64,000 nt of DNA from Callorhinchus milii (Eukaryota). The stretch covers positions 17,980,001 through 18,044,000 of the forward strand of contig NW_024704749.1 in assembly GCF_018977255.1 (NCBI RefSeq). Reading direction: 5' to 3'. Shown here in pieces: positions 1-53,261 of this stretch; positions within the stretch are counted from its first letter, which is position 1; each line of letters starts with the position of its first letter. The translations under genes and the position numbers were made by a program. Below the pieces are notes generated by a model that saw only the letters and a program-made list of their open reading frames with translations, was not told the origin of the DNA and did not search any database.

Positions 1-97
1 GGAGGCTCTGGTTCATGGACTGCAGTCCGGCCGGGATGAGCTTGTCCCTGCCCGGGAGCTGCTCGGTGCCCACCAGCTTCTTCAGCGCCGAGAACAT
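1..97 (-). CDS. RABL6: Rab-like protein 6, first coding exon (runs off window start)
   Basis: Minus strand from ATG at 97 reads MFSALKKLVGTEQLPGRDKLIPAGLQSMNQSL, matching the recalled RABL6 N-terminus MFSALKKLVGSDQAPGRDKNIPAGLQSMNQAL. Confidence 0.93.
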   Translation of the reverse strand, partial: MFSALKKLVGTEQLPGRDKLIPAGLQSMNQSL

Positions 98-475
98 GTT
101 GCCGGTGGGCGGACGCGGGCCTCCCCCGACTTCGGGGCCCCGCGCGGCGGCGGCGGCTGAGAGGCCCCGAGCGGCTGGCAATGGGGCAGGCGGGGGAAAC
201 CGCGGCCTCTTAGCCCATGGGGGTCAACCCGCCCGACCCGAGCAACCGCAGACCCTCCCCGGGGCGAGACCCCGGACGACAAGCGGGAAAGCGGCCGAAA
301 CCCCCCACCGTGTGACTGAGAGGCGCCGCCGCCGCTCCGCTCATCTCCTCGCCGCGCATGCGCCGAGCTCGCCCCTCCTCCCCCGGGCCGGCGCCGCCCC
401 GTGACGTGTCTCCCCCCTCCTCCTCCCCCCCCCCGCACCGAGCGCGCTGACGTCACACGCCGCCGACGTCATTTG
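98..475 (-). promoter_or_regulatory. CpG-island promoter/5'UTR of RABL6
   Basis: Very GC/CpG-rich. Palindromic CRE TGACGTCA at 448-455, second GACGTCA at ~465-471, NRF1-like GCGCATGCGC at ~354-363, GC boxes. Confidence 0.75.
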
Positions 476-525
476 GGAGCCAAAGTGTGACCCTGTCTTA
501 TTAAGTCGTCATCATCATCATCATC

Positions 526-855
526 ATAATAATAATAATAATAATAATCTTTGCATTTGATATAGCGCTTTTCACGTCGTGAGGACGTCCCGAAGCGCTT
601 CACAGAACACACTGTAAAGTGAATTGACTGTATCTTTGTGGGCGAACGCGGCAGCCAATTGCGCACAGCAATGTCCCACAAACAGTCATGGATTGAAAAT
701 GACTAATTTATTATTGTTTTGTTTTTTTGGAGGGATTATTATTAGGCTCTGTGTGGAGTAAGGAAACTTGCCCGAGGTTTCGCCCTCTGCCGGGGATTGA
801 ACTCAGGTCTCTCGCTTGCAAAGGGAGTGCTCTAACCACTGAGCTACAGGACTCC
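526..855 (-). mobile_element. tRNA-derived SINE with L2-type 3' tail
   Basis: Minus head GGAGTCCTGTAGCTCAGTGGTTAGAGCAC...GAGTTCAATCCC has Pol III A and B boxes; tail ends GCGCTATATCAAATGCAAAG(ATT)n. The family recurs throughout the window. Confidence 0.8.
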
Positions 856-1194
856 ATCATCATCATCATCATAGTAATAATAATAATAATAATAATGATG
901 AATAATTATCCTGGCGTTCAGATTTTCGGTACGGCGTCTTCTCACGTCGGAAGGACACCTCCCGAAGCGGCTTTGCAGGGATTAGGGAAGGCGGCTTCTC
1001 TCAGGCGGTCCCGCGGCCAACTCGTGCATGTTTATAGTTGCGTCTATCAATATTTATGTTCATCAATATTTATATTTGTGTGTTTTCGTTTGCTTGTTTA
1101 CAGCAGCACTTGTCTAACCAGCCCTAAGCTATGAGGCATCTGCGGGTCTGCCGCTGGTTCCTCAGCACGGTTTTCGTGCTCCCAGGAAGACAGT

Positions 1195-1450
1195 GGAACA
1201 AGAGGACACAGGTTTGGAGTTGCAAATTGCAATTTCGAAACTTGACACCGGGTCACTTTTTTTTTTTACCCGGGGGGTAGTTAACGAGTGGAACAGGTTG
1301 CCAGGATGGGTGAGTTGAGACCAGGGCGCTGGACTCATTTAAAAACGGCTTGATGCAACGAGATGGAAGACGATAGAATGAGTATTTTGGAAGAATTACA
1401 TCAAATGGGCGAACGTACCTTCTTCGTTCAAACCAATTTTTCGATCTTGT
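1195..1450 (+). mobile_element. CR1-type LINE 3' fragment
   Basis: AGAGGACACAG...TTTTTTACCC...GGTAGTTAACGAGTGGAACAGGTTGCC is typical of CR1 3' ends; similar remnants at ~2190-2350, ~7680-7890 and ~15300-15420. Confidence 0.6.
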
Positions 1451-2781
1451 AGGTCAGACAGCAACTTAATTTGTGTAGCAACCTTTAATAAAGGGTATCT
1501 CAGATATCTGTTCTTGTTGCTGTTGCCTCCAGGTTGACTCAACTGTGTTACCGGTACAAACAAAGCAGAGGTGAAACTTGCCCAACCAGTGCTTTTAAAA
1601 AAAGTAATTTACCTTAATTATTAAACATGCTTTTATTCATTTTTGTAACAAACCCAACAAACCTTCTGGACTCTTGAATAAAAGTCAACAGCATTACATG
1701 CCACCTCCGGAACATACTCTCCAGACACTACCATAATGGAAAAAGGTCAGTGGACTTATTCTCCCAGCTGGTAAGGACCTTTATTGGGTAATACTTTACA
1801 CAGGTGGGATTTTTACATACATCGCTCAAATGTGTGTCACTGTTATCAAAAGACAAGTCTTCTCACTCTGAGTGAACAGCTTGACAACAGCACCCTGTTG
1901 GCTCCCCTGAAAGAGAATGCACAAGGTTTTATAATAATAATAATCCTTGCTTTTGATACAGCGCCTTATCACCTAATTGAGGCATCTCAAAGTGCTTCAC
2001 AGGATATCCTGTAAAGTGGATTGACTATATTTTTGGAGGCAAAACACGGCAACCAATTGCGCACAGCAGTGGTGGATTGAGTGACCAGATTTTTTTTCTG
2101 GAGGGATCATTTCCCACATAAATAGTCACTGGCAAGGGATTGCATGGTTCAAATCTAATTGTGAACCTTGCCTTATCGAGTACTGTAGCACAGTTTCTTT
2201 CAATGAGTGGAATAAACTACTCAGGGACACAACAGAGGCAGAGAATGTCAACAAATTCAAGAGAGAATTGGTGAAGTTGCTGTATTAATTGAGGGGTAAG
2301 AGGCCCCAGAGATGAATATTGCAATGGTCTTATCCAGTTCTGTACCTTCCAATGTATCTATGTGTTGGCGGAACTTCCTTTGGATAATAATTGTCACAAC
2401 TATATGGGGATAATTTGTTTGCTTACCAGAGTCTCTCTCTCAGTCTTCCCTTGTTCCAATGCCTTATACCTTAAAAATCCCTGGGACCAGACAATATTGA
2501 AAAACTCCCATCATAATTGGGCCTGTCAAAAAAATGCATTTCTATTACATATGCGTGTAATATTGTGGAGTGAAAAGTGTGATAGACACAATCCATTTAG
2601 AGACATTGGGTGGTGTGGTGGGTAAAACACTGGGGTCCATAATTTGCTGATTGCAAACTTCATTTTCACATAATAATAATCCTTATCTCGTCTTCAAGAC
2701 GTCTCGACACGCTTCACAGAATATACTGTAAAGTGAATTGATTGTATATTGTGTGAGTGAAACAAGTAACTCTATTTAGTT

Positions 2782-2970
2782 CAAAACACAAAATACTGCA
2801 GATGCTGGAAATCTGAAACAAAAACAGAGAGAGAAGAGAAAAAAGAAAGTGAGTCAACGTCTCGGGTCCACGACCCTTCATCAGACCCAAAACGTTGACT
2901 CACTTTTCTTTCTCCATAGATGCTGCCTGACCTGCTGAGTTTTCCCAGCTCTCTCTGTTTTTGTTTCAAC
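2782..2970. mobile_element. Penelope-like element remnant with inverted arms
   Basis: AAAATACTGCAGATGCTGGAAATCTGAAAC...AGATGCTGCCTGACCTGCTGAG; 15-bp inverted repeat at 2846-2860/2892-2906; related fragment at ~42995-43110. Confidence 0.55.
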
Positions 2971-4979
2971 TCTAGTTGATCACCACACAACATTCCTACT
3001 ATTCAATCAGTGGGACTGGCTTGTGCAGTGGAATAGAAGCTATTCTTCCAGGATCAGGAACTTTAACGGGTCAGTGAAACCATTCAAAATTTACAGGGCA
3101 AAATGGACAGTGCAGTAAGCTACAATATGCCACAGCTAACTTGGCAGTGGCAGACAGGATGACAGAAATCTTCAAGATCTATTTGATAAACGCAGCAATA
3201 CAGTACTGCTCCAATATGCGTCACGTACATCATTCATAATGACGCCTTCCCCTTGTAATAAATGGGCTGAGGAGAAATTCTACCTGCGTCTAGATTTACT
3301 TTATTTAACTAACATGTCAGAGCATCAAAAAATTGTCAAATACTTAAATGCATTCTTGATTCTGAAGCCGCCTTTCTGTGCATTTCTTTGAAAAAAATAC
3401 AAGGTGTAAATTCTGAAATGCTGCCGTGTGGAATTGCTCTCCATAGATACTGTATGTCAATGGAGTTGACTTCACATTCTGGGGTGAAATATGGAGTATC
3501 TGATAATGTGCTCCTTGTAATAATACAAAGAACACATTATGAATGATGCAAATATCACTCCTTTCTCTTTCGTTTCTTCCGCTGGCACCTCACTGTTGGT
3601 CACACCAAGGATTCCATGCTTCCCTCAAAGCTTGTATCAGCAGCTGGGATTGACTGGCACTGAACCAGGATTTAATGATTCGTTTTTGAGAGAAATGTCA
3701 AATCATTTTCAATCTCAGTCGCATTTCACATATCAAAGTTCACCAATGAGCACTCGTACTACCTGCAGATAACAGGAATGCAAATTTGAATTTCCATTGG
3801 CGCAGGGTTATCACACACCTTTAAATACTTTGGCTTTAAAGTGGATAAACAGGATACCTGATGACAAACAATGGATGCAGTTTGTATTCACTGCTTGTAT
3901 TTATAAAATGCTTCATTGTTTTTCAGTTATTGAAGTCCAATATGTGGGTTGGGTTAATCATGGGGAAACTAACCCAGGAGCCCTCAATTCCGTACTTAAT
4001 CACTGTAAGATTACAAAATCACCTGTAATTCCTTTTATTGTTCATTACATAATGAAGGGCACCTTACAACACAGCAAAAATAACTTGCATTTAGGTAGCA
4101 CCTTTCACACTTCAAATCATTTTACAAAACACAGCAACTGATTCGAAATTAAGTTTATGTTGTTACATGGGTGAACATGGGAAGTTAATCTACACCGGCT
4201 CTGTCCCGAACACAACAGTGAGATGAGCATCTAGTTAATCAATTTGGGAGTAGATTTGGATTAGGAAATGCAAATCCATGAGAGAGATTCCATGTTTCTA
4301 TGAAACAGCATTGCTCTGACCTCTATTCACGAGTGTTTGCATGTGGTTAAGGCAACCTGCAAGTTTTGCAAACAAGGTCTTAACCCCAACCCGCAAATTA
4401 AATCAGATTGATGTCAGACTCATTGCGTGACAGACAAACATGCACAATTGGCCGCCGCATTTCGCCCATTAAATATACAGTCAATTCACGTTATGGTACA
4501 TTCTGTGAAGTGCTTTAGATGTCTCGAAGACGCGAGAAGGCGCTATATCAAATGCAAGGGTTATTATTATTCCCCAAACTGGAATAGCTTGTTTATCAAA
4601 CAATGAGACTGACATCAATGTGCAGCCAATACTCCATCCCCTTTTCCTTTATGACGCCAAAGTAGCTCCTCTGATATCACCACAGCTTCCTCACGACGTC
4701 ACAAAGCGGTTCAATCACATAACTTAAATAATATTCAGACAGGCTTAATTCAGCCGCTTCACACGTCACATCTTTCTTAATGATACATTGAAGGCAGTTA
4801 TGTACAATGGCGTGCTTTAATTTCGTTCTCGTGCACTTGTCCTTATTATCGATCGTGCCGAGGATTTCAGGCTTCTACCACAGTTCGTTGCAGTGGTTGA
4901 GAGGAGAGTAACTGCAATGGTATATGATATTTTCTTTCAGTGTGAGAAACTCTAACCATCAATAACTGATCTAAACTGC

Positions 4980-5160
4980 CCTTAACATCTGGAACTCACT
5001 CCCTCAACCCCTCTGCCTCCCACCCTCTCTATCAGTCTTCAAGTCCCACCTTAAAACTTACCTCTTCGATCACCACCTCCCCCTCTCCCTTTCACCCTAT
5101 TCCCCCTTCTTACTGCTAAGCACCCGTCCAACCCAACCACTGTAAAGCGCTCCAAGTTCT
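4980..5160 (+). mobile_element. L2 LINE 3' fragment
   Basis: ATCTGGAACTCACTCCCT...TTCAAGTCCCACCTTAAAACTTACCTCTT...TGTAAAGCGCT, the canonical L2 3' pattern. Confidence 0.6.
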
Positions 5161-5324
5161 TTATCAAACCGGTTTCAAAATGATTACGAGGCATTTCAGG
5201 ACTCTGAATTTTAAGTGCTTTTGGGATATGTTCTTATGTCCTTTGGGAGAAATTCATCCAACGTGTGATTACCTGATAGGGTTGAATCTGAGCTCTCTGG
5301 CAGTTAAGTAGTCATTCTGTCCAA

Positions 5325-6812
5325 TTACACTGGTTGACCATTTGTAGGAGGATTGATCACCCCTGGCAATGGAGCAGGTTTTCTATTTGAGCACTCCAAC
5401 TGTCCAGTGAGTGATGATTCTGTTGCCTGGTCATTTCTTGGGCAAAGTGCTTGGATGACTTGGGAATCCAGTGATGAAAGCGTGTTAGATCCTATACAAC
5501 ACTGTGGGCATTGTGACCGATTTCCCTGGCAGCTGAATGCTGGGCGCAGGACACCTCCCAGAGAGCCTCGTGGGCACAGTGTCCGATTACCCTGGCAATC
5601 TTGCGACGGGCGCAGTGTAGGTCCTGGACAAATCCGTGGGCATTGACTCCAAGATACTAGGCTGCCCTGTGATGGGCGCAGTGTAGCTCCTGGACAACAA
5701 CCCTGTGGGCATTGAGTTCCTTGACCATCCTGTGATGGGCGCAGGTTGGGTCCTAGACAGCTTCGGGGGCACTGGCAATACTGTGATGGCCTCAAAGTAG
5801 CCCCTGAGCATTGTAACCAATTTCCCTGGCAATCCTGAGATGGCTGAATCTTGGGTTTTGGAGAGCTTGGTGGACATTGGATTTGAGTTCTCTGGTAATC
5901 CAGTGAGAAATATGCCTTATTTCCCTGATAGCCTGGTAAGGAAGGTGTATTAGTTCCCATGTTTCCTTGAGGCAGAATCACCTTAGTTCCATGGGAGTCC
6001 AGGAGAGAATGGTTCTTAACACCCTGACTGCTTGAGGGAAGAAACGTCTTTGTTCCTGGAGGGCCTATTGGGGGAAGCGTGTTAGATCCCTGTTCATCCA
6101 CTGGGAGAACCACTGTAGCTTCTTGATTGTCTTGTACTAGATTCAGCTGAGTTTCTTGTCTCTCATGTGAGTAGTCAAGTGAGGGAATTTTGCAGCCAAC
6201 CAGCTGAGGGTTCACCTGAGTTCCTTGGCTATCTAATGAAGGCTGTATCTGAAATGTCTTGCTGTCTCCTGAAGGAACTGTCTGAGGTTTGGGGTATTCT
6301 GTTGAGTTAACCACCTGAGTTATGAAAAAGTCTTTTGGATAATGTGTCTGATATGTTCGGAGATCTTGTATATAGCATGGCCCAGTTCCTCGGTGATTAA
6401 GGCACAGATTAACTTGGTAGGTTTGTTCTTTACTAGTCACAGCCCTTTGTCGTTCCCGTGGGATATCAATATGAATTCCTTTGCATTCCAGTGTTAGCTG
6501 CATCTGTTTTTTCATGTTATCTCGATGGGAAAGTCTTCTACCGTTGTTGGGACTGCCACGTGAGGGAGTTCTGTACCTGTCCCGAAAGGTCTGCGGGCGA
6601 GGTCTGTGGGTGTCTTGAACACATGTCTGATTTGTCAGGTACTCCAGCAAGACTATATTCCTTCTGATAGCTACTGGTGAGACCTTTTCAATGAGGGGGG
6701 CGCTTTTTGGGATCTGATAATTGGGAAACCTAAATTTCTGTTGCTTCAGAACTGTCCAATTATTCATCCCAGAGCCTGGCCAGGAACGCCGGCAAGGCAC
6801 CGATGTGCCCAT
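5325..6812 (-). CDS. Uncharacterised ~495-aa Q/C/P/G/S-rich protein with degenerate 11-aa repeats (single coding exon)
   Basis: Stop-free frame 6980-5325. Best start is ATG 6812 (aagATGG, strong Kozak); ATG 6917 is an alternative. Repeats such as LRPSQDCQGN..QCP. Donor CAG|GTAATC at 5273, possible 3'UTR exon from 3762, AATAAA (minus) at 3300-3305. Confidence 0.6.
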   Translation of the reverse strand: MGTSVPCRRSWPGSGMNNWTVLKQQKFRFPNYQIPKSAPLIEKVSPVAIRRNIVLLEYLTNQTCVQDTHRPRPQTFRDRYRTPSRGSPNNGRRLSHRDNMKKQMQLTLECKGIHIDIPRERQRAVTSKEQTYQVNLCLNHRGTGPCYIQDLRTYQTHYPKDFFITQVVNSTEYPKPQTVPSGDSKTFQIQPSLDSQGTQVNPQLVGCKIPSLDYSHERQETQLNLVQDNQEATVVLPVDEQGSNTLPPIGPPGTKTFLPSSSQGVKNHSLLDSHGTKVILPQGNMGTNTPSLPGYQGNKAYFSLDYQRTQIQCPPSSPKPKIQPSQDCQGNWLQCSGATLRPSQYCQCPRSCLGPNLRPSQDGQGTQCPQGCCPGATLRPSQGSLVSWSQCPRICPGPTLRPSQDCQGNRTLCPRGSLGGVLRPAFSCQGNRSQCPQCCIGSNTLSSLDSQVIQALCPRNDQATESSLTGQLECSNRKPAPLPGVINPPTNGQPV

Positions 6813-7018
6813 CTTATTCGTTAAATGGCCTAATACCTGACTCAGCCTCTCACAGAGGGTTACAAGGTGCTGACTGGCTATGGTGCTGATGTCACGAACA
6901 CTGTAACGTAACAGCATATTGGTTGCTTGGTAACTGCCTGACACTGACAGTAGGAAATTTGCTGTGCAATGATAGTCCACCAGATACAGCAGTCAGGAGC
7001 AGCCTGACGACTGACAGG
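6813..7018. promoter_or_regulatory. Putative bidirectional promoter with RFX X-box
   Basis: GTTGCTTGGTAAC at 6922-6934 fits the X-box consensus; CRE-like TGATGTCA at ~6887-6894; lies between two divergent ATGs (6812 -, 7019 +). Confidence 0.6.
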
Positions 7019-10000
7019 ATGAATGTCGGGAAGCATAGCCTCTTCACCCCAGAACCACATTACATCCCTGGGTAGGTGATGCTTTCTATGGGCGCGTATT
7101 AGGATTGGGTTTAAAACATAAAACTACAGCCTTTAATATGAATTATTGCTTTATGACTATAATAAGAATATCAATGATCTGTTGTCAATACACCCTGACA
7201 ACAGAGTCTATTGACCCCAAATTCCACCTCATCTTACATTAAGACTTGATTTCGAAGCCAGAACCGAGAAAAAAATGACTTCAAAATGAATATCACCAAG
7301 TCCCTTCTTGAAGATGAACTCTATTCGGTGATTGCTGAATACATGTCACTGGCAGTGTCCAGCAGAGAGAAATATTTTACTCTGCAGAGTTCAAAGTGTT
7401 CAAATGGCTTCAGGAGAGGAGAGAAGAGAGAAAATTGATGAGAAGAGAAAAAAAGGATATTCAAACACTGTGTTTATTTGCAATAATAATAAAAATCCTT
7501 GCTTTTGATATAGCGCCTTATCACGTTGTCAAGACGTCTCAAAGCGCTTCACAGGAATCGCTATAGCGTAAGAACTGTGTATTTGTATGTAAACGTGGTA
7601 GCCAATTTGCACGCAGCAATGTCTTACAAACAGCCGTGAAATGAATAACCAATTTTATCTCGGGGGTCGTGGCCAGGAATAATAATATAGACTTGATAAT
7701 GAAGAAATCTAACATGGTTAACAGCTGTGGCCTTCACACTATTATGGAACAGGGTTATGCGGAATGGTGGTTGAGACCAGGATACTGGACTCACTTAAGA
7801 AATGGCTGAATGGGAGAATGGAAGGGTGGGGATCTTGGTAGGATAAGAACTCAGCCCCCTCTTCTTCTGACCTCTCTTACGATCTTATGCTATATAAACA
7901 TAAATTTCTATTTTGTGTGCATGAGACACAAATACAAAGTCACTCCATTTCACAGTAAATCCCGAAGAGCGATTTGAGACATTCTTCTGATATAAGGCGC
8001 TATATCAAATACAAGGATTATTATTATTATACTGTCACATTGATTTCAAACTTTTTTTCCAAATAACACTGGACTTTCCTGGCCAAGCAACTAACTAAAT
8101 ATTCCTGCAGGCTGATTGACATTGGCCCAAAATATCTGGATGTGTAACTTATATATTCCGCTGTACTTATATTGTTGTGTGGGACACTGGGTGTGGAATT
8201 GTAATATATGTATAAATACCTTTGTTCACATGTAGATATGCAGGATATTGTCCCAAATATCCACATCAAACTGGGAAGACCTTTGGCAAAACCACATTGG
8301 ATCTACTGGCTTCTCATGCCAATGAAGGATCACACTCTCTTCTGGCACCTATAAATGCGCCTCAGTACTACAGTGATGATGAGAACTGCATACCCTATTC
8401 ACCGGGTGTATCAGACCAGATCTTTGGAGAAAAGCTCATTCCTGGCTACACCGGTGAGTCAGATATGGTATGAGTTTTATTCTGAATAGAAAACATTCCG
8501 TTTATGATATTGCTTTTGTTTTTTTTGGTCAGCTAATTGTCCAACACATGCAGAAGCTCATCTCCAAGCTTAAGGTATCCAAACCAGATTGAACGTTCCA
8601 CGTATGTGTGCCACCAAACATGTGGGGTGATCCTAGCTGGACAACCAGTGGGAAGCTTGCCAGACAGCGCTTTCAATGAGAATCTGTGACGTTTTAGCTG
8701 GTTAAACCCCAGCAGTACCCCCACTGCACACTTGGGTCCCAAACCTTCGCTTTTTTCAGCCTGCACCTAATACTCTGCAGAATTAGACATGTAGAATGCA
8801 TACCTCCAGGAAGAGAGTACTCATTCCATTCTAGATACAAGAAAATTAATATCATTGTGGTAGACAAGATTGCAGAGAATAAATAGATTTTGTTTGCTAA
8901 GAACTAATGCAATCGCCAACTACTTTATCTTTCCAACTTCAAACTGGATTGCTTCCTTCCACTTCCCAAATTGCTGTCATATTCCTGTAAAGTGTTCCAA
9001 GATGCTACCCTCATGAAGGGCATTAACCCTATGTTATAATGAACCAGATCAGTATCCTTGTTCCATACTTTCATATGTCCTTATTCTATATCATCAGACT
9101 TTTCCTTTACTCATCAGGATATGTTCCTCAGAGGATGTACAAGTTTGGGAATAGCTACAATAAGGAGTCTCTTGATTGTGGAATGGAATTATTGAAGAAT
9201 AAAGTGGATTACCAGAGAAAAAAGAATGAACCGATACTCCTCACCTATAGAGATGGCGGAACAAGGGTATAAATTATGAGACACAGTGGGCATGTCATGG
9301 CAAGAGAAAACAATGTAGTCAATACTCATATGAACCTATACTGTCAATGGTAGGAAAGCAGTAGGAAGGGGATGGGGTACAGCAGAGATGTCAAACAGCA
9401 TAACCAGAGCTTACACTGATGGGACATATTGGTAGAGGGTGCGGGGTACAAAATATATAACGACATTCAAGTACAGCTGGGAGGAATAGAGTATTTGCCT
9501 ACAAATGCAATCACTCCACTTAACAATATTTACTGTGTTTTGAGTGTTTCAACATTATCGATGCTATATCAAATGTAAGAATTATTATTCCTGATATTAA
9601 TAGTAAACACTCGCACTGGCAGTATACAGATTTATGTGTTCCACCCTGGCATTTCCTTCTCAGCTGGCAACCTCTGGTGAGAACAGGCCATTGAAAGCAG
9701 TGGCTTCAAAAGTTGATCCAGTGAGTTGGACTCATCTGTACAAGCACAAGCATCTCTTTACCACACAACCTCCTGAATTACAGAGGAGAGGGATTGCAGG
9801 TATGTTTTTACTATCACATTAGAATATAGTTTGGAGTAAGATGAAAGGTTAATCAATGTTTAAAAAATCCAGTCAATCAACGCATTATTTTACGACCACA
9901 CAAGTGAGCTTCAAGTTTGCTGTGAAGGAACAACTGAAAAATAGTGTTCCTTCGTTGCTTGTCTGAGGATGCAGATAAATGCTTGTCTGAGCATAACATG

Positions 10001-11228
10001 CACTGCAACCCACTACTGACGCCATGTGGAAGTAGTTTCAGAAGCAGTGATCACAGCATAAATGTGGTGACTCTAAATGCCCTGGCCTTGCTCCCAGTGC
10101 TCCTTTCAAAGGTCTCAATTTGTCCGGCCTGAAAACGTTGAAAGGATTACTTTCAATATTGTTACTTTAGTGAAGTACTCAGCTGAGGACAGCGCTTTCT
10201 GTGGGGAAAAAAACATTGATAATCTCCTCTCACTGTTTAGTGTAGGTTACACAGGATTTGTTCCTGAAATATCAAAGATTTACTCGCATCCTTATTCTGA
10301 ACGTGTGAAACAAGCCATGGATACGTTCCAGCATAAGCAGGTATTTACAACTATTCCTGCAAAGGTTCCTACTGAGCATTTTTCAGGAAGGAAGGTTTCT
10401 TGAAAAGTGCTATTGACACGGGGCTTGAAGCCACAACCGTCTGACTCAAGAGAGAGTGGTACTACTGAACCAGGTGCTAAATCAAATGCAAAGATTATTA
10501 TTATATGTATTTGTTATCTAGCACCTATTGGTAATGTATTGATGGTTGTTTTTCAGTTCTCCAAACTGTTTGCTGTTGTGTTGATATGTTGTTAGTTTCA
10601 TTATTCTATCGGTATATTTTTTAAAAATGTTGATTGAAATATTGTATTTTTAAGTTATGAAATTTCACGTAATGGAAATATGCTAATCGTGCAGTTTTCA
10701 TGCCACGAACATTTTCATTTCAGTATTTTTCAAGGAACAAAATCAAATCTTGCCCAAAGCCTTTTGTCTCCCAAGTTGATAATGAGATTTACCACAAAGC
10801 AGGAATGGTCCCTCATTATGGAGGTCATATGCCAGGTATGTGTATCAATCTTTAAAAACCTCTGCATTGTAGTCACTAAATACATACTGTATCCAACAAT
10901 TTGCAAGGGATTAGGGAAGACTTAATTAGACCTTCAGCAATTAAGAATTTAGAAAGATTTATAAAGCTACATTGAGGAATATGAAGGTGAAAAAGCTAAA
11001 AAAAAAAACTTATTGAACTTTACATTAAAAAGATTACAGACCTAATTTGAGAGGTAACTGGTTTGTCTATTTTGTGGGTGTGTTCTGATATACCTACATT
11101 AATAGTTATAGAATGACAGAATAATTCTTTATTTCAACAAATTCATGTTTGCAGGCAGTCAATTTGGTGTTGGAAACACATTTGGTCGGAATTCTAGGAA
11201 TGCCTATCAGGAAATCCATATTCCTTAA
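7019..11228 (+). CDS. FAM166A: Ciliary microtubule inner protein 2A / FAM166A-like, 7 exons, 278 aa
   Basis: Exons 7019-7071, 8236-8453, 9118-9266, 9664-9799, 10246-10340, 10724-10835, 11155-11228, all GT-AG and phase-consistent (837 nt). N-terminus [24 protein letters not shown], repeated PGYxG(Y/F)xP motifs, AATAAA at 11372-11377. Convergent with TUBB as in human FAM166A-TUBB4B. Confidence 0.88.
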
Positions 11229-12387
11229 AATTCCAAAATGTCATTGCATAAAATTGTACTATCAGGAAGTTTTTGAGTGGATGACTTTGGAGTTTTTGAG
11301 ATGGAAACACAGAAAGGATGAAATAATACAGAACAGAAAGTGAAAGGTCAGAAATGAGCTTTAATGTGATGAATAAACAATACAGTAGTTGGAAGTATTG
11401 AACACTGTATAGAAAATATTACTCCTCAACTTTGTAATCCTGGTATGTCGGATGCTCAGATATGTATTAACAACTGAACTGCGATCTGGAAATTAACCCA
11501 TAAAGTAATGTCATGAATAGTTTCTCCATGAGCTCTTGGTGATTTATAAGAACATTTGCTTGCACCAAAGAAAAATTTTCAATGCATAATGCTGATGAGA
11601 AATTTCCTCTGGGCGTGAGGTCATAAGCATTACTTCTGGGTTGAAAATAACGCTTGACCATCAACTCACATATATGTAGTTTGACATTCTATTGCATTGA
11701 TTAGAGATGCACTTTAAATTGCTGCTGGATAATGCTTGCCAGTGAAAATATTGAGCGCATAATCTAGGCTGATACTCCCATTGAATTGCTGGGGGGTGGG
11801 GTGGGGGTTGCACTGTCAGATCTTCTGTTCTCTGATTGAGATGTTAAACCAAAGCCCCATCTGCATTGCCTGTAAAACAATTACCTGTGAAGTCTTTTGA
11901 GATGTTTACATATAGGTTTTCCTGATGTGAAAGATGCTATTTACTGTAAATGTAAATTTGCTTTGTTTTGGTGCTACATCACATGCAAGGTTTATTGTGC
12001 GCTCAACCATCCTTTTCAGACACCCTCCTGGAACACAGGATTATGCCAGTTATGGAACAAGTGAGGTGCATTAAATTATTTAGTAGCTGCATTAAATAGA
12101 TTGATTCAGCTACAGGAACAAATACATTCTTGTATTTGAAATAATTGCTTATCATCATCAATATTATCCCAAACCTTATCAGAGCCTTCACAATACATAG
12201 TACTTTGAAGTGTACTATATTTACATAAACAAATGTGTTTTTTTCATGAATTTTGAATGAAAAATATTGGCCAGGACACATGGGATCTTTATGCTTAAGA
12301 GATAGAATCAGGACCACTTTCCTCCACCTTATCACCTTGCCAAGGTCCACTGGCATCCCACCACATACAAATTGACTTAATGATCGT

Positions 12388-12660
12388 GGAGTCCTGTAGC
12401 TTATTGGTTAGAGTACTCACCTCTCTCAAGAGAGGACTTGGGTTCAATTCCCTGGCGGGGAGAAATGTTAGACAAGTTTCTTTACTCCACGTGTGTCTGT
12501 TTACCGAGCAGTAAGTAGAAACCCAGTTGTTAGTCAACTGGCGGATTGGGTTTTCAGGAGCAATAATCCCCGATTGTTTGTGGGACATTGCTATGTGCAA
12601 TTGGCTGCTGTGTTTCACCCCCAAAATATACCGTCAATTCACTTTACAGTATATTCATGA
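12388..12660 (+). mobile_element. tRNA-derived SINE copy
   Basis: GGAGTCCTGTAGCTTATTGGTTAGAG...GGGTTCAATTCCC head, then the same body as the 526-855 copy. Confidence 0.7.
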
Positions 12661-13477
12661 GAGCTTAATAACATATAGTCTCAAAAAAATTAAGTTAACA
12701 AAATTAGCTATCTGATCTTTAGAAAATATATACCGACTTATAGATCCTTTCCTATCTTTAAGAATTCAAGAATGGCATCTTGTATAATGGTCACTAGAAG
12801 TTTACCCACAACTGAGATAATACTGTATTTGGCCTACAATGTCATTTTATTCTTCTCTTGAGCAGGGATGTAACATTCACTAACTTGGGAAAACAAAAGG
12901 CAAAACCAAAATGTTAACAGATATAACAGATTTAATTCAAGTATTTCAGACCAACATTCAATACAAAAGAGAAGATATGAAAGTAGAACAGGAAGACATG
13001 AAATTCAGAAACAGGTTTCAATGTAACAAAGAGAAAAGCAAAGTAAAGTCCATAAGAATTTTTATTAAAGTATTCTTGTTAGAAAGAGCAAACTAAATAC
13101 TTTCCCTATTGCAAGAGATTCCAACAATGCTGTCCCTTGGACCCACTCCTACTCAAGGGACCATTGTAAGGAGACTGAGCGAAGAGATTTGGACTGGTCC
13201 AAGAAACGATCCAAGCCACATGACTCGGGTAAGTACAGCAAGAAAAAACAGGTGATACTATACAAGCTCTATATTTCTAATCCAGGAAGTAAAAAATCAC
13301 CAACACCTTCCTGAAATTATTCAAAATGCAACAATTTAAGATACCACTGGATCAAAAGCCCAAGTATGCATATAGGAAAAGTATTGTTTTGTAACTTTTC
13401 AGCCCCCATTAAAGAGAACACTGAACACCATTTGGATTTAATTTTCCCAACAGGCTCTAAATTATATACAACACTGC

Positions 13478-16350
<2,873 letters not shown>

Positions 16351-23517: not shown

Positions 23518-23830
23518 GCTGACCGCTCGCTCTGGCTAAGCTACTCTCTCCCACGGAACCAAGCGGCTCGAAACGGCTGGCCGGCGCTCGCACGCTCCTT
23601 ATATACCGACGCGTCATCGCTGGCCTCGGCCCCCACCCGCCCATTGGGCCGCGCCCCTGCCCATCAGCCGCGTCCGGCGGCCCCCATTGGTCCGATTCAA
23701 AGCGGGGCGTTCCGCGATTGGTTTTGAGTCGCCGTTGCCAGGCAACCACCGCCCCTCCCCCCGCCCCGCCCCCGCGTCACCATTGTTGGGCGTCTGTGGG
23801 CGCTTCCGCTGTCCAGGCACATGGCTGCCC
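23518..23830 (-). promoter_or_regulatory. CpG-island promoter of tubulin copy B with RFX X-box
   Basis: TATATAA (minus) at ~23599-23605, three CCAAT boxes, CHR-like TTTGAA (minus) at 23696-23701, palindromic X-box GTTGCCAGGCAAC at 23734-23746. Confidence 0.72.
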
Positions 23831-26592: not shown

Positions 26593-30658
<4,066 letters not shown>

Positions 30659-42493: not shown

Positions 42494-45400
42494 TTAAATC
42501 CTTCTTCGCCATCCTGAATAATAAATGTATCATTGTGCTTATAAAGTGACCTGTTGATTTTAACGCTCATCGATCTGTAAGAGACCGAGATTCCTCTCTG
42601 TCTTTAGCTGGGGTACCTGCTCCGTGGCGATGCTCTGCTTTAGCGACAGGGGCTGGAGTTGGGGACGGAAGCTTCTCTTCGGGAGCTTTTTCTTCTGGAG
42701 GAAACACAATGGAACAGCACTGTTGATATGTGTAAACGACTACATGCCACGGCAATTTGAACATCTCATATAGACCTACGTATGTGTAAGGAGATTAGAA
42801 ATAGCAGCGATGCACAAAGAGACCCAGATCATAGAATTAAACAGCACAGAAAGGAGGCCATTCGGCCCATCGTGTCTGTGTCGGCTCTTTGAAAAGAGCT
42901 TCCAAATCAATCCCCCTCCCCCGCTCTCTCACCGTAGCCCTGAAAAGTTGTCCTCCCCAAATAATTATCTACTCTCTTAAAAATTGTTATCGAATCGATC
43001 TGAAACATTAACTCAATTTCCTCTCTCCATAAATGCTGCCTGACCCGCTGAGTGTTCCCAGCGACTTCTGTTTTTAATTCAGATTTCCAGCATCTACCAA
43101 TATTTTGCCTCTTACCTGGGGTCTCTGCAGGCACCTCAGCAGCTGGAGGCACCTCAGCAGCTGGAGCCACCTCAGCAGCTGGAGGCACCTCAGCAGCTGG
43201 AGGCTCCTCAGCAGCTGGAGGCTCCTCAGCAGCTGGAGGCACCTCAGCAGCTGGAGGCTCCTCAGCAGCTGGAGGCACCTCAGCAGCTGGAGGCACGTCA
43301 GCAGCTGGAGGCACCTCAGCAGCTGGAAGCTCCTCTGCAGCTGGAGGTTCTTCTGTGACGGCAGCCTCCTTGGCCGCCGCAATGGAAGATTCTGACGGCA
43401 GCACGTTGGCCTCAAAGCTGTTGGGTTTGGTGACGTTCCCATGCGGGCTGTACTGTGCCACCACGAATGCCCCCTTGTTACTGACTGAGTACGCAATCCC
43501 CATCTCTTTGGTTTCCTGCCACACCAGCTGGGTAAAATGCTCTGGTGGGAGCAAGAACAAATAAAACGTTTAACAGGTGTGTGTGTGCGCGCATAAGGGC
43601 ACGGACAAAGAGCTTTCGCCCACAAAATGTGCAGTCAATTTACTTCACGGTATATTCTCTGAAGTGCTTTGAGGCGGCTCAAAGACCTGATGAAGGACTA
43701 TATCAAATGTAAGTATTATTATTATTACAGAGAGTGAAACACATACCTGTAACTTCATTAAGACCAGGTTTTTCAAAGTCATAGTATTTATTTTCAGCAT
43801 ACCAGGCGTCCACGGGCTCATTGCCTGAAATGAAACAATATATTGTCACTTTTCTTAAAGATTCATTCAGAGAATTTCACATCAAAGGATTTGAGACTGT
43901 CACTGTAACATACAGTTGCATTGCACAGGATGCCTGGGAGAATACATTGGCACATCAAGATTGGTGGCACACTGGCTGGGCTGTTGAAGAGTTGTTATCT
44001 ATTTGATCAGACTCCCTGAGGTCTGCTGGGATGAGGAGGAACATGGTCCTCTGCCTACATGCAATGCAATGGTTCACTCCCATTTGCCCCAGGACTTGTG
44101 GTTAACGTAGCTCCCCATTGTGAGATGGTCCAAAATAGTTGTGTCCAGGGACATGAACATTGAGAACACTGGCAAGCTTCTGGCTACTTGATCAGTGAGG
44201 ACCACCCTCACTTGGCTCGCAGCGTTAACAGAAGCTGAATGTGAAGAATCCCAGCTCTCCGAGACTTCAAGGTGGGACCTTGTACTCCTGTAGTGGAGAC
44301 CTTCCTGTGAACAGAAGACAGTTTTCAACATTGGATCCTGGATTATTGATGAACTGCAGAACTTGTTACAATGATTATTTGCGCAGACTGACAATCCATA
44401 ACTCATTTGTGTAATCCGAGAGTCAGGAAGGATATTGTTCTCAAGAATTTAGAATTGCTGCTATGCGTATTAAAGATGTTTTACAATATTTATTTGTGAA
44501 TCAATATTAATGAATCGCTTACCAGCATGAGTGCTCTCCGGTTCCTGATGAGTAGTTTCACTGTGACCTTCTTGGCATAGTCTTTAAATAGCTTTTAACT
44601 GGAGCTCAGTCAAGATGCAAGGATTATTATTACGATATAGGACTAGAAGGCTCCTGTTTAGTCCACTCAGCACTCATCCTATTGAATAGTCGGTACAATG
44701 TCTAAAAATATCCTCGGTGAGTGGGTCGAGGCGAGTAAGCAAATAAGCAATAAATAAGTAAGATCTACTTAGAGTTGAACTGGCCTAAGCAAACCCAAGG
44801 ATTAATTCAATTACTGCTGGTTGTTCACTAGAAAACGATTAATGAATGAGATGTAAAGGTGTAAACGGATTCCCAAAACTACAAGCCAAAGGCCTAACAA
44901 GTATGGTGGCCCGAGGTGGATATTACTAGTATCCTACAGCTACCCTTTGAAATTGCTTCATATCTCTGACTATGTGTAGTTTAGTCTCATTCTATGTGCT
45001 GGATTTCATTCAGCTTTTTGTCCTCTGCACTCTTCAGTCTTCGTCATTTTGGACGCTTTGTCGCCTCTTCACACTTTTCCGTGAACCTCTCAATCGGTAA
45101 AGTTGCTGTTCTTCCAAAACCATAAAGGGGTTGAATCTCAGCACTAAACACATCTACGTAAATTGGAAGAGTAAAGGAACAAACACGGTCATTTTACTTG
45201 TCCATTTGGTTTGAACTGTTAAACCGAGGCCCCATCTGTCTGTCCAGATGGACTTTAAAAATCCCTATTCGTACAGAGAAGAGAGTTTCTCCTCAGTGTT
45301 TTGGTCAACAATTCTTTAGTTAAATTGATCATTCCCTTCGTGGCTTCTCTTGGGACACTGCTGTGTGCAATCTGTCTGCCTGCCTCACCGACAAATACAG

Positions 45401-48400
45401 TCACTACACTGGACTCCAATTCCCTGCAAAGCACTTTGAAACATTTTGAACATTATAGGTACTGTATACATTATTATTAACAAGGAAGATTTTAAAGCTA
45501 TGTTATAAAGGGAGATTCTTAGAATAACACTTTTTTTTGAGTTGAGCACATGATTCATAGCTTTAAAATGAAGAGAGACAAATATAACATCAACGTAAGC
45601 AGGCTGCTTATCTTGGCCTTGGAACAGAGAACTGGCAGTCTCAAGTAAAGAATCAACAAGCATTAGGCAAGACAAGAGACTCATTCTTTTTCACTCAGAA
45701 GCATAGATGTACATAACAGACTTCACTGAAACCAGTTACTGAATCGTTTCAAAAACAATGGGTAAATGTTTTGTTTGGAATAGGATTGAAGACGACAGGG
45801 GTCAATAAGGAAAGAGATAATGCCATGAAACACAATGTTCTCTGTGCGTTTTGGACGATGAAAAGGTCTTCTGTGTGATACACATAATCAGGGACCTCGG
45901 TCTACAAATATACAGTCACCAGTTCACAGTATATCCTGCGAAGCAGTTTGAGACATTTCAATGACGTGATAAGGCGTTATGTCAAATGCAAAGATTACCA
46001 TTAAGTATAAGTGATGGAGCTGTAAGGATTGTACAATATAAAGAGACAAGTGTCAGCTTGGCTCAGTTGAGAGGTACACTCCAGCCATCACACATGTACA
46101 GGAAGGAGGAAGGATAAATGAACAACCCAAAAAATGAGGGAATGACCTACCAGACAACTGATTTTCCTCAGTGATGTCCATTTTGGCCCAAATGTTTTCT
46201 CCATTGTTGGTAGGACTTTGCTCGATGACTCCACCAGGCGCCAGGACATCCGCCCACACCTTGCAATCATTGCTGAGCTCCTTACTGTAAGTGAGCAACG
46301 GTGCATTGTGAAGCTGCCTGTACTTATTGTGAGCCTCCAATGCCTCCAATTCAAACCTAGTCATCTGGGTACCTGCGAGAGAAAACGCAGACCTTTCAGA
46401 ACGATAGCATTTGTCGAAAACACGAACGAGAAGAGCAAGGTGACATCTACAGAGTCCAGACACATGTTTGCCATCCAGTGGTCAGAGCGGAATCTATTAG
46501 GAAGAACATTCCCACCCCAAGCCCCGTGTAAGCTTTGACCTGCCCCTAACTTTCCCACTGGCTATCTATAAACTTTATCTTTAACATGGTTTTGTACCTG
46601 TGATGTCCAGGGGCACATTTTGGTCAGAGAGAGACTCCGAGGTTGATCCCAATATTTCCAAGGGAGTTTTGGTTTCTGACAGCACATTGCTGGCAAAGAC
46701 GCGTGGGTTTTTGCTGTTTCCAGCAGGCCTGTACTGAGCTACCACAAACAAGCCAGCTTCGCCCACCGAATAACTTATTCCCATGTGAGTGGTTTCCTTC
46801 CAAATGAGCTGGGTAAATTTGCCTGATGGGGGAAAAAAAAGCAAATCAATTAGACAACTAATTCTTCTGCAAGTAAGTACCTGCCAGTTTGGCTCATTTG
46901 GTAGCATTCTGGGTCAGAAGCTTATTAGTCCTGCACATAAGAATATAAGGAATGCTCGGCAAAAAAAAGACCAAGGTCCATCTAATTCGCCTTCCACCTT
47001 CCTGACGATCGCATGCACGTATGTCCCGAACTCCCTATGTACTATGTCCCGTAATGTTATTTCCTAAAAGAAAACTATCTAATCTGTGTTTGAAAGAATC
47101 CACACTTCCTGCTCCCTAGGGAGCCTGTTCCACAGATTCACTATTTGCTCAATACGAGCGCTCAGTTTAGCTCAGCGCTTAGCGCGCTCGCCTAGCGAGT
47201 GAGAGGACCCAGGTTTGACTCCCGAGCAGAGCAAAATCTTAGGCAAGTTTCCTTACTTGACACATCTCTGTTTACCTAGCAGTAAGTAGGTAAGTTGCCC
47301 CTGAGGAACCTGCCCCTACTGAACCCGGTTGTTAGTTGATTGAAGGATCACTTTCCGGGGGTAATAATCCGTCAAAAAAAATTGGTCACTCAATTCACAG
47401 CTGTACACAATTGGCTGCCGCGTTTCACCAGCAAAATACACAGTTAATTCACTTTACAATATATTTCTGTGAAGCATCCTGAGACACCTCGACGACGTGA
47501 TTAGGCACTAGATCAGATGCAAGAAGTATTTATCATATCATTTACTAATGATAAGCTTGGACTGCCTACCACTTGGGCATTCCTAGTTTATATTATGCCA
47601 GAAAGCGGTGACACACAAGTCACACTTTCTGTCTCCATTCACAAACAATATGAAAACATACTTGTGAGGCTGCTAAAGCCAGGACTGCTGAAGTCATAGT
47701 CGTTAATTTCTTCATACCAGGAGTCCACCGGCTCCTTGCCTAAAAACAAAGCAACATGTTGATATTCTTTGCATGACACATCAACAAGATGACAGAATAG
47801 GATGGGTACAAGTCACTTTACTTATCAAGCATCAACTCCACAGATAGAAACATATCCAAGTAAATTTTCCACTGGGAAGCGGAAAGATTAATACGATTCC
47901 AACATCCCAGTTGAACAAACAATGAGGGAATTCTGAGGTGAAACAGGACGTGGGTGACAGTTTATTCTAGGAAAGCTATAGGCAGGGGAATCACAAGCGA
48001 AGTGACTGTGATGATGTGTAATAGAGATGCGCAGCGTATCTAGCCAAAGAACATCACAATACAAAATTACATTTGTATAGCGCTTTTCGCATCGGGAGGA
48101 CGTCCCAAGGTGTTGGACATTGGTCAGAGATGGGTACCAGATCGCTTCGACAGAACAATCAATAAGGTCTATCACCAAGATCCCTGGTTCAGAACATGGG
48201 TAAGAGAGCATGGGTGACTGGACCCACATCTCAGAACATAAGTCAAAAGCAAAAATAAAAATAAAAAAAAGCTTTTCACACCTAAAACTTCTGTAGCATT
48301 TGGCTTGAACCAGATATTCTCTCCATTTTTGGAAGCACTATCCTCAATTGTTCCTGTAGCAGCAATGGCGTCTGCCCATGTTTTGCATTGGTCTCTCAAT

Positions 48401-51400
48401 TCCTGATCAAACACAAGCTCCGTTGCTTTGTGAATCTTCCGATAGTCATTGTGAGCAATCAATGCTTCCGTCTCAAATGGAGTCAATTGATACTCTGGGG
48501 AGAAAACGGAGTGAAGCAACAATTATATTGGACTTCAAGGTGAATGTCAAAGGAAAATCCAAAGATCCGGCAATCTGCAAAGACAGCGATAACCAATCAC
48601 TCACCAATACCCAATCACTCACTAATATCCACTCACTCATCAATGAATCACTCAATGTCACCAACTTCCTCACCAATACGCAATCAAACCTGTGTTGCTC
48701 TCTACCCACATGAGTTCCTACCTGAGGGCTCTTGTTCCTTTTCTACAATTTCCTCAGCTGGAGCTGCTTCCTCTGTAGGGGCAGTCTCTTCCACAGGGGC
48801 AACTTCCTCAGGGGCAACTTCCTCTGGGGCAGGTTCCTCTGGGGCAGGTTCCTCAGTTGCGACAGGCTCTTCAACAGGGGCGGGTTCTTCAACGGGGGTG
48901 GGCTCTTCAACAGGGGCGGGCTCTTCAACAGGGGCGGGCTCTTCAACGGGGGTGGGCTCTTCAACAGGGGCGGGCTCTTCAGTGGGTGCGGGCTCTTCCT
49001 CAGGAGGTGGAGCCTCTTCAGCTGGTTCCTCAACAGGGGCGGACTCTTCAGTAGGGGCAGGTTCCTCAGGGGCAACTTCCTCAGTAGGGACGGGCTCTTC
49101 AATAGGGATAGGTTCTTCCTCAGAGGCGGGCTCTTCCTCAGGTGGTGGAGCCTCTTCAGCTGGTTCCTCAACAGGGGCCGGCTCTTCAACAGGGATGGGC
49201 TCTTCAGTGGGGGCTGGGTCCTCAGCTGTGGCTGGTGGAAGCACATTTTCCTCAAAGAACGATGGGTTAGTGATGTTACCAGCAGGGCTGTACTGTGCCA
49301 CTGCAATCGCTACATTTTCATGCACTGCATATGCAATTCCCATTTCGGTGGTGGACTTCCACACCAACTGGGTAAAATGACCTAATGGGAATACATTGAA
49401 CATTTAATGTAAAGCATATTAATGTCCTTTCAGCCACTACACCCCAAAACTCTGGAACACTCTTCCTCAATCCCTTTGCCTCGCCCCATGCTTCCCCATC
49501 TTCAGGTTGCGCCTGAAGACCTTCCTCTTGACCATGCCTACGGTTACCTCCCCTCTCCCCCTGGCTCGGCGTCATGCTCTGCCACTGTCAAGCCATCTGG
49601 GATGCTAACCTGCGTGAGGAGTAACACTGTTGAAGAGGAAGGTCTTCAAGTATGACCTAAAGGTGGGGAAGGGGGTGGGGGAGGGGGGGCAACGTGGCGG
49701 GATAGAGGGAAAGTGTTCCAGAGCTTTGTGTCACTGAAGAGCCAGATAGGTTGTTGGCTATCCATCAACAGTGTCCATCATTATTATGGATCCCCATTTG
49801 AGAACCTGATTAACCACAAGAAGGATATTTCAAAATGTGTTTATCAACTTCAAAATGAGGATCTACTGAGCTCTAAACCCAGAGCCTTGGTACAGAGGAA
49901 CTTAGGAACATAGGAATTGCTCGACATAAAAAGACCAAGGTCCATCCAATTCACCTTCCACCATCCTGGCGATCGTTTGTACATTGGTCTTGATTCCTTG
50001 TTCAACCTATGAAGCCACAATAATGAAGTATTTGTAAGAATTGGTCATCGGAATTATCTGCACCATTCACTTGTTCACAAGAGGGAATTGGATAAAGACC
50101 TTCAGCCCATTTGATCTCAACCTTCCAGAATAACAACCCGACGCTACTCCCATCCTCTCATCACAGAATCAAGCAGTTTCTTTCTTAGGTCCTGTGTCCT
50201 GGCCGCAACGACGCCTCCTGGTAACCCTGTTCCCCATCGTTAATTGTCTTGTTTCGCCCACAAAATATACAATTCAATTTACAATAAATCCTGTGAAGCG
50301 CTTTGAGACGGCTCAAAGATGTGATAAGACGCTACACCAAATGCAAAATTATTAATTATTATTGTTACCCTTCTGGTGTCTGCTGTCCTCCCAATGTGAA
50401 AGGCGCTATACAAATGTAATTTGTTGTTGTTGTTTTGAAATTGCCCTTTGCAACCCCAAAAAATGTGTCCGCTGCTGCCTTGCCTTACATTAAAGTATGA
50501 CGCAATGTGTGCTTCATACTTTCCTTAATTGATCTGTTAATTGATTACTTTTATGTGAAGACGCTTGATATATCCAAGTTATTATGGTGTAATTATCAGG
50601 CCCACACCAACATCATATCACGTGGTCAGAGCTGGACTAATTTCTCCATGTTCACCCATTTGCACAAGAAGGTAAAACACTCACCTGTTTCACTCTTAAA
50701 GCCTGGCTCATTGAAGTTGTAATCTTTGATTTCATTGTACCAGGCATCCACAGCTTCCTTGCCTGAATGAAAACATAATATAATAATAATCCTTGCATTT
50801 GATACAGCACCTTATCATGTCTTCGAGAAATCTCAAAGCGCTTCACAGGATATACTTTTGATTGATTCGTTAATTTAGAACCTGCGTACAATACCAACAA
50901 AACTGCGTGGAGTTATATGTAAGATGAGGTGATGTGCCTAACTCACAATTCAGCTGGAGTTTAATGGATTCCCTCCATTCCCTCCCCGCCCTCCCCACCT
51001 CTGCTGTTATTTCAACAAATCATCTTTCTCACGGTTACCCTGGTTCACACACACATTCTCTCACGCGCACACTGAAATCCAAAGCCACACATAGACACTC
51101 TTACATACTTGCATTCATACAACACACACACACACACAGAATGTGGCTTCATACACACATACAACCACACACTGACCAGTACTGTACACACTGAACGGTA
51201 CTCATATGCACAATCGCTCACAAGCACATTGATGAATGGACTGTGAACATGGACCCGGATGCGTTAAGTCCGTGTGTGAATTTTTAAATTCAATGTAAAA
51301 TCATTTCTCTGCATTCGGTACTCATCAGACTGTGCCCCGAGCAAAGGCTGGAAGAATAAAACACAAACAGTGCAGAGAAAACGACATACCAAAAACTTCT

Positions 51401-53198: not shown

Positions 53199-53261
53199 TT
53201 CAGTTTCCCATCCACGTGGATGTATGTAACAATGGCTCTTGGGCGCTGGGTATCTGCCCCC

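What the first reader, a model, noticed from the sequence alone, without database searches (positions are those of the whole stretch)
5325..6980. Orphan ~495-aa Cys/Gln/Pro-rich protein with 11-aa periodic repeats
Seen: a 1.65-kb stop-free frame in AT-rich DNA. Its C-terminal ~290 aa are degenerate 11-mers (PSSSQGVKNHS, LLDSHGTKVIL, PQGNMGTNTPS, LPGYQGNKAYF, SQDCQGNWLQC) grading into ~22-aa LRPSQDCQG..QCP units. Diverged repeats without stops suggest coding selection. I recognise no family. It occupies the position of human STPG3 (head-to-head with FAM166A), but I see no STPG3 similarity. Inference: a lineage-specific disulfide-crosslinked sperm or ciliary structural protein.
Basis: partly seen in the sequence, partly recalled or inferred. 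Interest (0 to 1): 0.7.

Follow-up and report, generated by a model that had tools for sequence, protein, structure and literature searches.

The report
Unannotated elephant-shark cysteine-repeat protein gene
The elephant shark genome holds a long, intact, unannotated reading frame for a repetitive cysteine-, proline- and glutamine-rich protein that appears to share a cilia-type promoter with a sperm-tail gene, so it is probably a fast-evolving structural protein of sperm, but its expression and function are untested.

Summary
The minus-strand frame 5325-6992 has 555 open codons, the longest in the window; the likely start is ATG 6812 (495 aa). Residues 240-527 of the frame are degenerate 11-mers that turn into Cys-rich 22-mers. 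The units have diverged 26-37% from consensus with no stop (simulated chance about 0.0003), and length changes keep the frame. A second haplotype is intact and single-copy. The neighbour is Callorhinchus milii FAM166A/CIMIP2A. Its true first exon (ATG 7019) lies 206 bp away, head-to-head, across an RFX X-box. The public model uses other first exons and buries this ORF antisense in an intron; the ORF's protein was not found in the collection. No relative was found among 1.84 billion representatives, Pfam, PDB sequences or the ESM Atlas. SHIPPO/STPG3 features are absent, and only one flank matches STPG3's position. Best reading: a lineage-restricted, disordered spermatid or flagellar structural protein cross-linked through cysteines, working like SMCP or the ODF1 tail without being homologous. 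Coding status is well supported; tissue and function are inferred only. No expression data and no orthologue were obtained.

The parts
5325..6812 (-). Likely coding sequence, 495 aa plus stop, apparently one exon (the stop-free frame extends upstream to 6992; an alternative ATG is at 6917)
   Evidence: ATG 6812 has A at -3 and G at +4; ATG 6917 lies 5 nt from the X-box, so probably inside the promoter (inference)
6276..6812 (-). Non-repetitive basic N-terminal part, about 180 aa, pI 10.2, no signal peptide or membrane span
   Evidence: highest 19-residue hydropathy 0.91
5877..6275 (-). Degenerate 11-aa (33-nt) repeats, Cys-poor, pI 5.4; across 21 units Gly at position 7 in 14, Gln at position 6 in 11
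5412..5876 (-). Cys-rich 22-aa (66-nt) higher-order repeats, each two 11-mers (one PSQD-type, one CP-type); several CPxxC-like and CC motifs
6813..7018 (.). 206-bp interval between the two start codons: putative shared bidirectional promoter
   Evidence: Sequence
6922..6934 (.). RFX X-box match (consensus recalled)
   Evidence: One of only 2 strict sites in 64 kb; 0.33 strand-counts expected per shuffled window against 4 seen
6887..6894 (-). CRE-like site (one mismatch from the palindrome; consensus recalled); weak
   Evidence: 6 strand-counts in the window
7019..7071 (+). True first coding exon of FAM166A/CIMIP2A, missing from the public model
   Evidence: Matches the N-terminus of a solved FAM166A chain, 13 of 15 residues, E=0.00026; phase-2 donor fits the acceptor at 8236
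8236..11626 (+). FAM166A/CIMIP2A exons 2-7
1131..1570 (+). Two upstream exons (1131-1211, 1533-1570) used by the public model P0002; their intron to 8236 contains the ORF antisense
4816..4821 (-). Nearest common poly(A) signal variant, about 500 nt after the stop (a canonical one is at 4039); candidate only

Best explanation
A real, probably single-exon protein gene, transcribed away from FAM166A/CIMIP2A from a shared RFX-type promoter, so made in flagellum-building cells, most likely spermatids. The product is a cytoplasmic, intrinsically disordered 55-kDa protein: a basic head that may dock on acidic partners, a flexible Gln/Pro/Ser/Gly spacer grown by 33-nt duplication, and a Cys-rich 22-mer tail whose regularly spaced thiols cross-link chains (perhaps held by zinc first) into a stiff, insoluble sperm accessory structure. 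Shown: open frame, repeat anatomy, frame preservation, single copy, intact second haplotype, promoter geometry. Inferred: transcription (about 0.85), testis or motile-cilium expression (about 0.7), cross-linked structural role (about 0.45).
For: Longest open frame in the window. 21 repeat units, 26-37% from their consensus, carry no stop; neutral simulation gives 0.0002-0.00035. 51 of 56 exact 9-mer self-matches are in frame, 40 of them at distances that are not multiples of 33 nt, so length changes kept the frame. The non-repetitive 180 codons are also open (P about 2e-4). GC3 0.414 is like FAM166A's 0.408. Run X5 shows no change or indel in the coding part it covers and single-copy depth. 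X-box midway between the two ATGs; the only other strict site is 217 nt upstream of a beta-tubulin ATG. Mouse Fam166a is down in Rfx2-null testis at P30 (PMC4498915 supplement rows). FAM166A is a doublet inner protein of sperm and airway cilia (PMC10973386 passages). Disulfide-linked Cys/Pro-rich proteins form the sperm mitochondrial capsule (PMC9956255 passage).
Against: No expression or protein evidence was obtained, and no orthologue, so no true dN/dS. pN/pS among repeat units is only 0.78, against 0.79-0.96 in the five control frames; only the Cys-rich halves stand out (0.66 against 0.83-1.05); values are uncorrected and near saturation. Units were parsed by eye in the open frame. Cys positions are only partly conserved between units. 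The X-box may serve FAM166A alone, and mouse Fam166a was not an RFX2 ChIP target. The consensus used was recalled and the site was first seen by eye. Both fold predictions were uninformative (pLDDT 31 and 38), which shallow alignments alone can cause. Nothing places the protein in any sperm structure.
Confidence: 0.45

Rival explanations
1. A microtubule-binding repeat protein of the axoneme (inner or outer doublet protein) that folds only on tubulin, co-regulated with FAM166A; the cysteines are secondary.
For: Shared promoter with a PYG-repeat inner protein; short Pro/Gly repeats and predicted disorder; one unit has a PGYxG motif like FAM166A's.
Against: That match is not significant (E=4.1) and occurs in 1 of 21 units; no Pfam hit; no PDB sequence hit at E<=10.
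Confidence: 0.15
2. A membrane-tethered or zinc-binding scaffold: the CC and CPxxC-like motifs are palmitoylated or bind metal instead of forming inter-chain disulfides.
For: 19 Cys in the last 184 residues with CC pairs and short Cys spacings; no signal peptide, so it sits in reducing cytosol.
Against: No recognised zinc-finger spacing or family; irregular Cys spacing.
Confidence: 0.12
3. The gene is STPG3 itself, diverged beyond recognition, or the big first exon of a spliced STPG3-like gene.
For: Human order is TUBB4B, FAM166A, C9orf173 (STPG3) (PMC4074351 gene list); this ORF holds the same side of FAM166A; Stpg3 is testis-enriched and dispensable in mouse (PMC7401030 passages).
Against: No Pfam family on the ORF; none of 44 downstream minus-strand frames hit a SHIPPO family; no PGPxxY-type motif in any frame of 1-13500; no convincing downstream exon chain; 0 hits among 1.84 billion representatives; the other flank is not NELFB-like.
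Confidence: 0.1
4. Not a working gene: a decayed 33-nt minisatellite or recently dead gene, open by inheritance, in the intron of the long FAM166 model.
For: Not in the protein collection in any of 6 start variants although the neighbour's model is; weak pN/pS signal.
Against: Stop avoidance, frame-keeping length changes, an open non-repetitive 5' third, an intact second haplotype; the public model's overlap can explain the missing annotation.
Confidence: 0.1
5. A transposon or viral ORF.
For: Intronless and without known family.
Against: Depth 6.6-8.3 in run X5, like unique DNA, against tens of thousands or more at SINE-bearing bins; no Pfam, NCBIfam or PHROG hit; no relative in viral or metagenome contigs; no second copy in the window.
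Confidence: 0.02

Closest known systems
[quoted passage not shown]
   Same: Cys- and Pro-rich short repeats in a non-secreted protein; the class forms disulfide-linked sperm structures (PMC9956255 passage). This is what it most likely works like.
   Different: No sequence match; repeat unit is an 11/22-mer built on Gln-Gly; 495 aa with a basic head; no alpha-crystallin domain. Repeat details of SMCP and ODF1 are recalled.
STPG3 (C9orf173), SHIPPO-repeat sperm-tail protein
   Same: Neighbour of FAM166A in human; testis-enriched; head-to-head orientation recalled.
   Different: No SHIPPO repeat or motif; apparently one exon; other flank differs; Cys-rich 22-mers are not an STPG3 feature (recalled).
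PYG-repeat microtubule inner proteins (FAM166A/B/C, C10orf82, SPATA48)
   Same: Adjacent gene and putative shared promoter; one PGYxG motif.
   Different: No PF10629 hit, no helix-plus-loop unit detected, motif not repeated.
Single-exon, fast-evolving testis repeat proteins such as FSCB and C2orf16/SPATA31H1 (recalled, not tested)
   Same: One large coding exon, low-complexity tandem repeats, poor conservation.
   Different: Different repeat units; no detectable homology.

Membership tests
STPG3 / SHIPPO-repeat proteins | SHIPPO repeat profile match | tested here: not met
   0 Pfam families for the whole frame and both halves; none in 44 downstream frames
STPG3 / SHIPPO-repeat proteins | PGPxxY-type motif (recalled) | tested here: not met
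   0 matches in six frames of 1-13500; motifs split by introns would be missed
STPG3 / SHIPPO-repeat proteins | Adjacent to the 5' end of FAM166A | tested here: met
   206 bp ATG to ATG; human order
STPG3 / SHIPPO-repeat proteins | NELFB on the other flank | tested here: not met
   The gene starting at 98 (minus) reads like RABL6 exon 1 (name recalled; one search gave no confirming hit)
STPG3 / SHIPPO-repeat proteins | Testis-enriched expression | not testable with these tools
   No RNA holder listed
STPG3 / SHIPPO-repeat proteins | Direct pairwise alignment to an STPG3 sequence | not testable with these tools
   No tool returned an STPG3 sequence; the alignment in the PMC7401030 supplement is a picture
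PYG-repeat inner proteins | PF10629 / repeated PYG unit | tested here: not met
   (best match E=4.1)
SMCP / ODF1-type cross-linked sperm proteins | Cys- and Pro-rich repeats, no signal peptide | tested here: met
SMCP / ODF1-type cross-linked sperm proteins | Sequence homology or alpha-crystallin domain | tested here: not met
SMCP / ODF1-type cross-linked sperm proteins | Disulfide-linked polymer in mature sperm | not testable with these tools
   Needs sperm biochemistry
Transposon ORF | Multi-copy, with transposase, RT or gag domains | tested here: not met

The most novel reading that the evidence does not exclude
The gene arose, or was rebuilt by 33-nt repeat growth, on the free side of FAM166A's ancient RFX promoter at a synteny break, and its product is a main building block of the longitudinal columns that stiffen the helical sperm tail of cartilaginous fishes: an independent invention of a disulfide-hardened tail fibre, parallel to mammalian outer dense fibres. 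It would be a first named component of that structure (no composition data seen in searches).
Probability: 0.1. Interest if true: 0.72.

Novelty: new member of a known kind. Interest (0 to 1): 0.4.

Why it matters
It is a 495-aa gene that seems missing from the protein collections of a much-used reference vertebrate genome, hidden by a doubtful 5' end of the neighbouring FAM166A model, which this work also corrects. Fast-evolving Cys/Pro-rich testis repeat proteins are a known kind, so the class is not surprising. Its value is as a concrete, testable candidate for the accessory sperm-tail structures of cartilaginous fishes (longitudinal columns: PMC8812575 and PMC11856307 passages), and as a case of gene turnover at a conserved ciliary promoter.

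Tried and rejected
Homologue searches, all blank: word-indexed search at near length, 0 of 4485 candidates at E<=1; N-terminal 180 aa against longer proteins, 0 of 117 at E<=10; phmmer over 1,835,955,588 representatives, 0 at E<=0.001; ESM Atlas whole and N-terminal part; exact look-up of 6 start variants, 0 of 6; PDB sequences; Pfam, NCBIfam, PHROGs; viral and metagenome contigs. Shorter proteins were not searched. These blanks cannot separate a new gene from a fast-diverged one. No whole genome is held, so no paralogue, STPG3 or other-shark search was possible. Expression: no RNA holder listed. I laid 4 of the 12 listed runs. The three guessed-RNA runs gave only background: one 152-nt piece at depth 2.8 in X1 inside the ORF, like pieces in introns; FAM166A exons were equally bare. 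This is no evidence either way. Polymorphism: X5 has 0 differences in the covered coding part (5499-5547 not covered by listed pieces), but the adjacent 4 kb also has only about 3, so this is not a test of constraint; X5's kind is not recorded. A SHIPPO-looking frame near 3513 (minus) was considered as a downstream exon and dropped: no fitting donor, no Pfam hit. AlphaFold on the single sequence (pLDDT 31.3) and on a five-row alignment of its own repeats (38.4) gave nothing usable, so no fold search was run. No complex prediction was run. Tandem Repeats Finder does not report the array: too diverged. Rfam found only a tRNA-like SINE head at 787-849. Papers: 10 searches showed nothing describing this gene; the library lacks most subscription papers. 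Earlier-finding look-ups by sequence, place and words showed nothing on this locus.

Full report
Observation. The minus strand holds a stop-free frame from 6992 to the stop at 5325, 555 codons. It is the longest open frame in the window, ahead of the beta-tubulin exons. The five other frames over the same DNA hold 24-36 stops, and 500 shuffles of its bases gave at most 263 open codons. The 60 open codons upstream of it are compatible with chance (P=0.057). The ORF is 46-50% GC in flanks of about 40%.

Anatomy. Numbering is on the 555-codon frame. Residues 61-240 are non-repetitive and basic (pI 10.2). Residues 240-372 are 11-mers with strong lag-11 self-similarity (z=6.8). Residues 373-527 are Cys-rich 22-mers (lag 22, z=6.0), each made of two 11-mers in the same register, with Gly at position 7 in 14 of 21 parsed units. 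Three irregular stretches (262-284, 395-407, 419-439) were left out of the 21 units. DNA periodicity peaks at 33, 66, 99 and 132 nt, so the array grew by 33-nt and later 66-nt duplications. There is no signal peptide or membrane span. Two AlphaFold runs gave pLDDT 31 and 38; this fits disorder but proves nothing without an alignment.

Is it coding? The 21 units differ from their group consensus by 26-37% of bases yet none has a stop; neutral simulations give 0.0002-0.00035. Of 56 exact 9-mer self-matches, 51 are in frame and 40 of these are at distances that are not multiples of 33, so length changes kept the frame. The non-repetitive 180 codons are open too (P about 2e-4). Against this, amino-acid constraint between units is weak: pN/pS 0.78 against 0.79-0.96 in control frames; only the Cys-rich halves stand out (0.66 against 0.83-1.05). 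Run X5, which differs from the window at about 30 sites in 13 kb, shows no substitution or indel in the covered coding part and single-copy depth of 6.6-8.3, while SINE-bearing bins reach tens of thousands or more. I read this as a gene selected to stay open but loosely constrained in sequence.

Surroundings. The plus-strand neighbour matches at 100% a public protein named FAM166B-like from Callorhinchus milii; its best solved relatives are FAM166A/CIMIP2A chains. The public model starts with two exons at 1131-1211 and 1533-1570, which puts the ORF antisense inside an intron. A better first exon lies at 7019-7071: it matches the N-terminus of a solved FAM166A chain at 13 of 15 residues (E=0.00026) and has the right splice phase. 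The two starts are thus 206 bp apart, head to head. Midway sits an RFX X-box (6922-6934; consensus recalled), one of two strict sites in 64 kb; 0.33 strand-counts are expected per shuffled window against 4 seen, and the other site is 217 nt upstream of a beta-tubulin ATG. Human X-boxes cluster within 500 bp of the start site (PMC5838959, passages). Mouse Fam166a is down in Rfx2-null testis at P30 but was not a ChIP target (PMC4498915, two supplement rows). The ORF's protein is not in the collection in any of 6 start variants; the overlap with the public model may explain that (inference).

Position. In human the order is TUBB4B, FAM166A, C9orf173 (STPG3), COBRA1 (NELFB), and RABL6 lies elsewhere in the band after KIAA1984 (PMC4074351, gene list in a passage). 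Here tubulin and FAM166A keep their convergent layout, the ORF holds the STPG3 side, and the next gene reads like RABL6 (name recalled, not confirmed by a call; blank). The interval is therefore a synteny break, and positional orthology to STPG3 rests on one flank only. STPG3 features failed: no Pfam family on the ORF, none of 44 downstream frames hit a SHIPPO family, no PGPxxY-type motif, no convincing exon chain. A direct alignment to STPG3 could not be made.

Relatives. None: 0 of 4485 and 0 of 117 candidates in two word-indexed searches, 0 among 1.84 billion representatives, nothing in the ESM Atlas, PDB sequences, Pfam, NCBIfam, PHROGs, viral or metagenome contigs. A low-complexity, fast-evolving protein would also be missed across the distance to sharks, and other chimaera genomes could not be searched, so 'orphan' does not mean 'newly born'.

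How it most likely works. Shown: frame, repeats, promoter layout. Inferred: RFX-driven transcription with FAM166A in flagellum-building cells, most likely spermatids; a disordered cytoplasmic protein whose basic head docks on a partner and whose Cys-rich tail is cross-linked during sperm maturation into a stiff accessory structure, as Cys/Pro-rich proteins such as SMCP do in the mammalian mitochondrial capsule (PMC9956255, passage). Cartilaginous-fish sperm tails carry longitudinal columns beside doublets 3 and 8 (PMC8812575 and PMC11856307, passages), an obvious candidate site, but nothing links the protein to them. Confidence in the whole chain is 0.45. Rivals: axonemal repeat protein (0.15), acylated or zinc-binding scaffold (0.12), unrecognisable STPG3 (0.10), dead or non-coding (0.10), mobile element (0.02). 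No expression evidence was obtained in either direction.

What I saw of papers: passages only for PMC7401030, PMC10973386, PMC11856307, PMC8812575, PMC5838959, PMC9956255 and PMC4074351; supplement hits for PMC7401030 (alignment is a picture) and PMC4498915; all others as search listings. Ten searches showed no description of this gene.

Verdict. A real and apparently unannotated gene with no detectable family; not STPG3 by any tested sequence feature; most likely a new member of the known kind 'fast-evolving Cys/Pro-rich sperm repeat protein'. Interest 0.4.

Noticed in passing
window 7019-7071 (+) versus 1131-1570 (+): The public FAM166B-like model of C. milii (P0002) lacks the conserved first exon and is better named FAM166A/CIMIP2A; its two upstream exons may be an artefact or a minor transcript from the divergent side of the CpG promoter near position 400.
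   Followed up: yes
window 13478-37821 (-): Tandem cluster of at least four beta-tubulin genes (start codons at 16350, 23517, 30658, 37821; four last-exon frames); the copy ending at 26593 is visibly divergent.
   Followed up: no
window 23734-23746: Second strict RFX X-box, 217 nt upstream of a beta-tubulin start, with CCAAT-like and TATA-like sites nearby; may mark a ciliary or testis tubulin copy.
   Followed up: partly
window 42907-51732: Exons resembling GAPR-1/GLIPR2-type CAP-domain genes (name recalled), two ending in acidic Glu/Pro/Ala tandem repeats (18-nt arrays at 43125-43347 and 48865-49206).
   Followed up: no
window 58495-59866 (-): Exons of a receptor tyrosine kinase domain, DDR-like by recall.
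   Followed up: no
window 1-98 (-): First coding exon of a gene that reads like RABL6 (recalled), under a CpG island; marks a synteny break relative to human next to FAM166A.
   Followed up: partly
window 52825-53199 and 57670-58078: Minisatellites of 36 nt and 21/63 nt that create spurious open frames.
   Followed up: no
window 10137-12360: Run X5 differs from the window far more densely here (18 of 30 listed substitutions) than over 1000-7500; possibly a divergent haplotype block in the 3' half of FAM166A.
   Followed up: no
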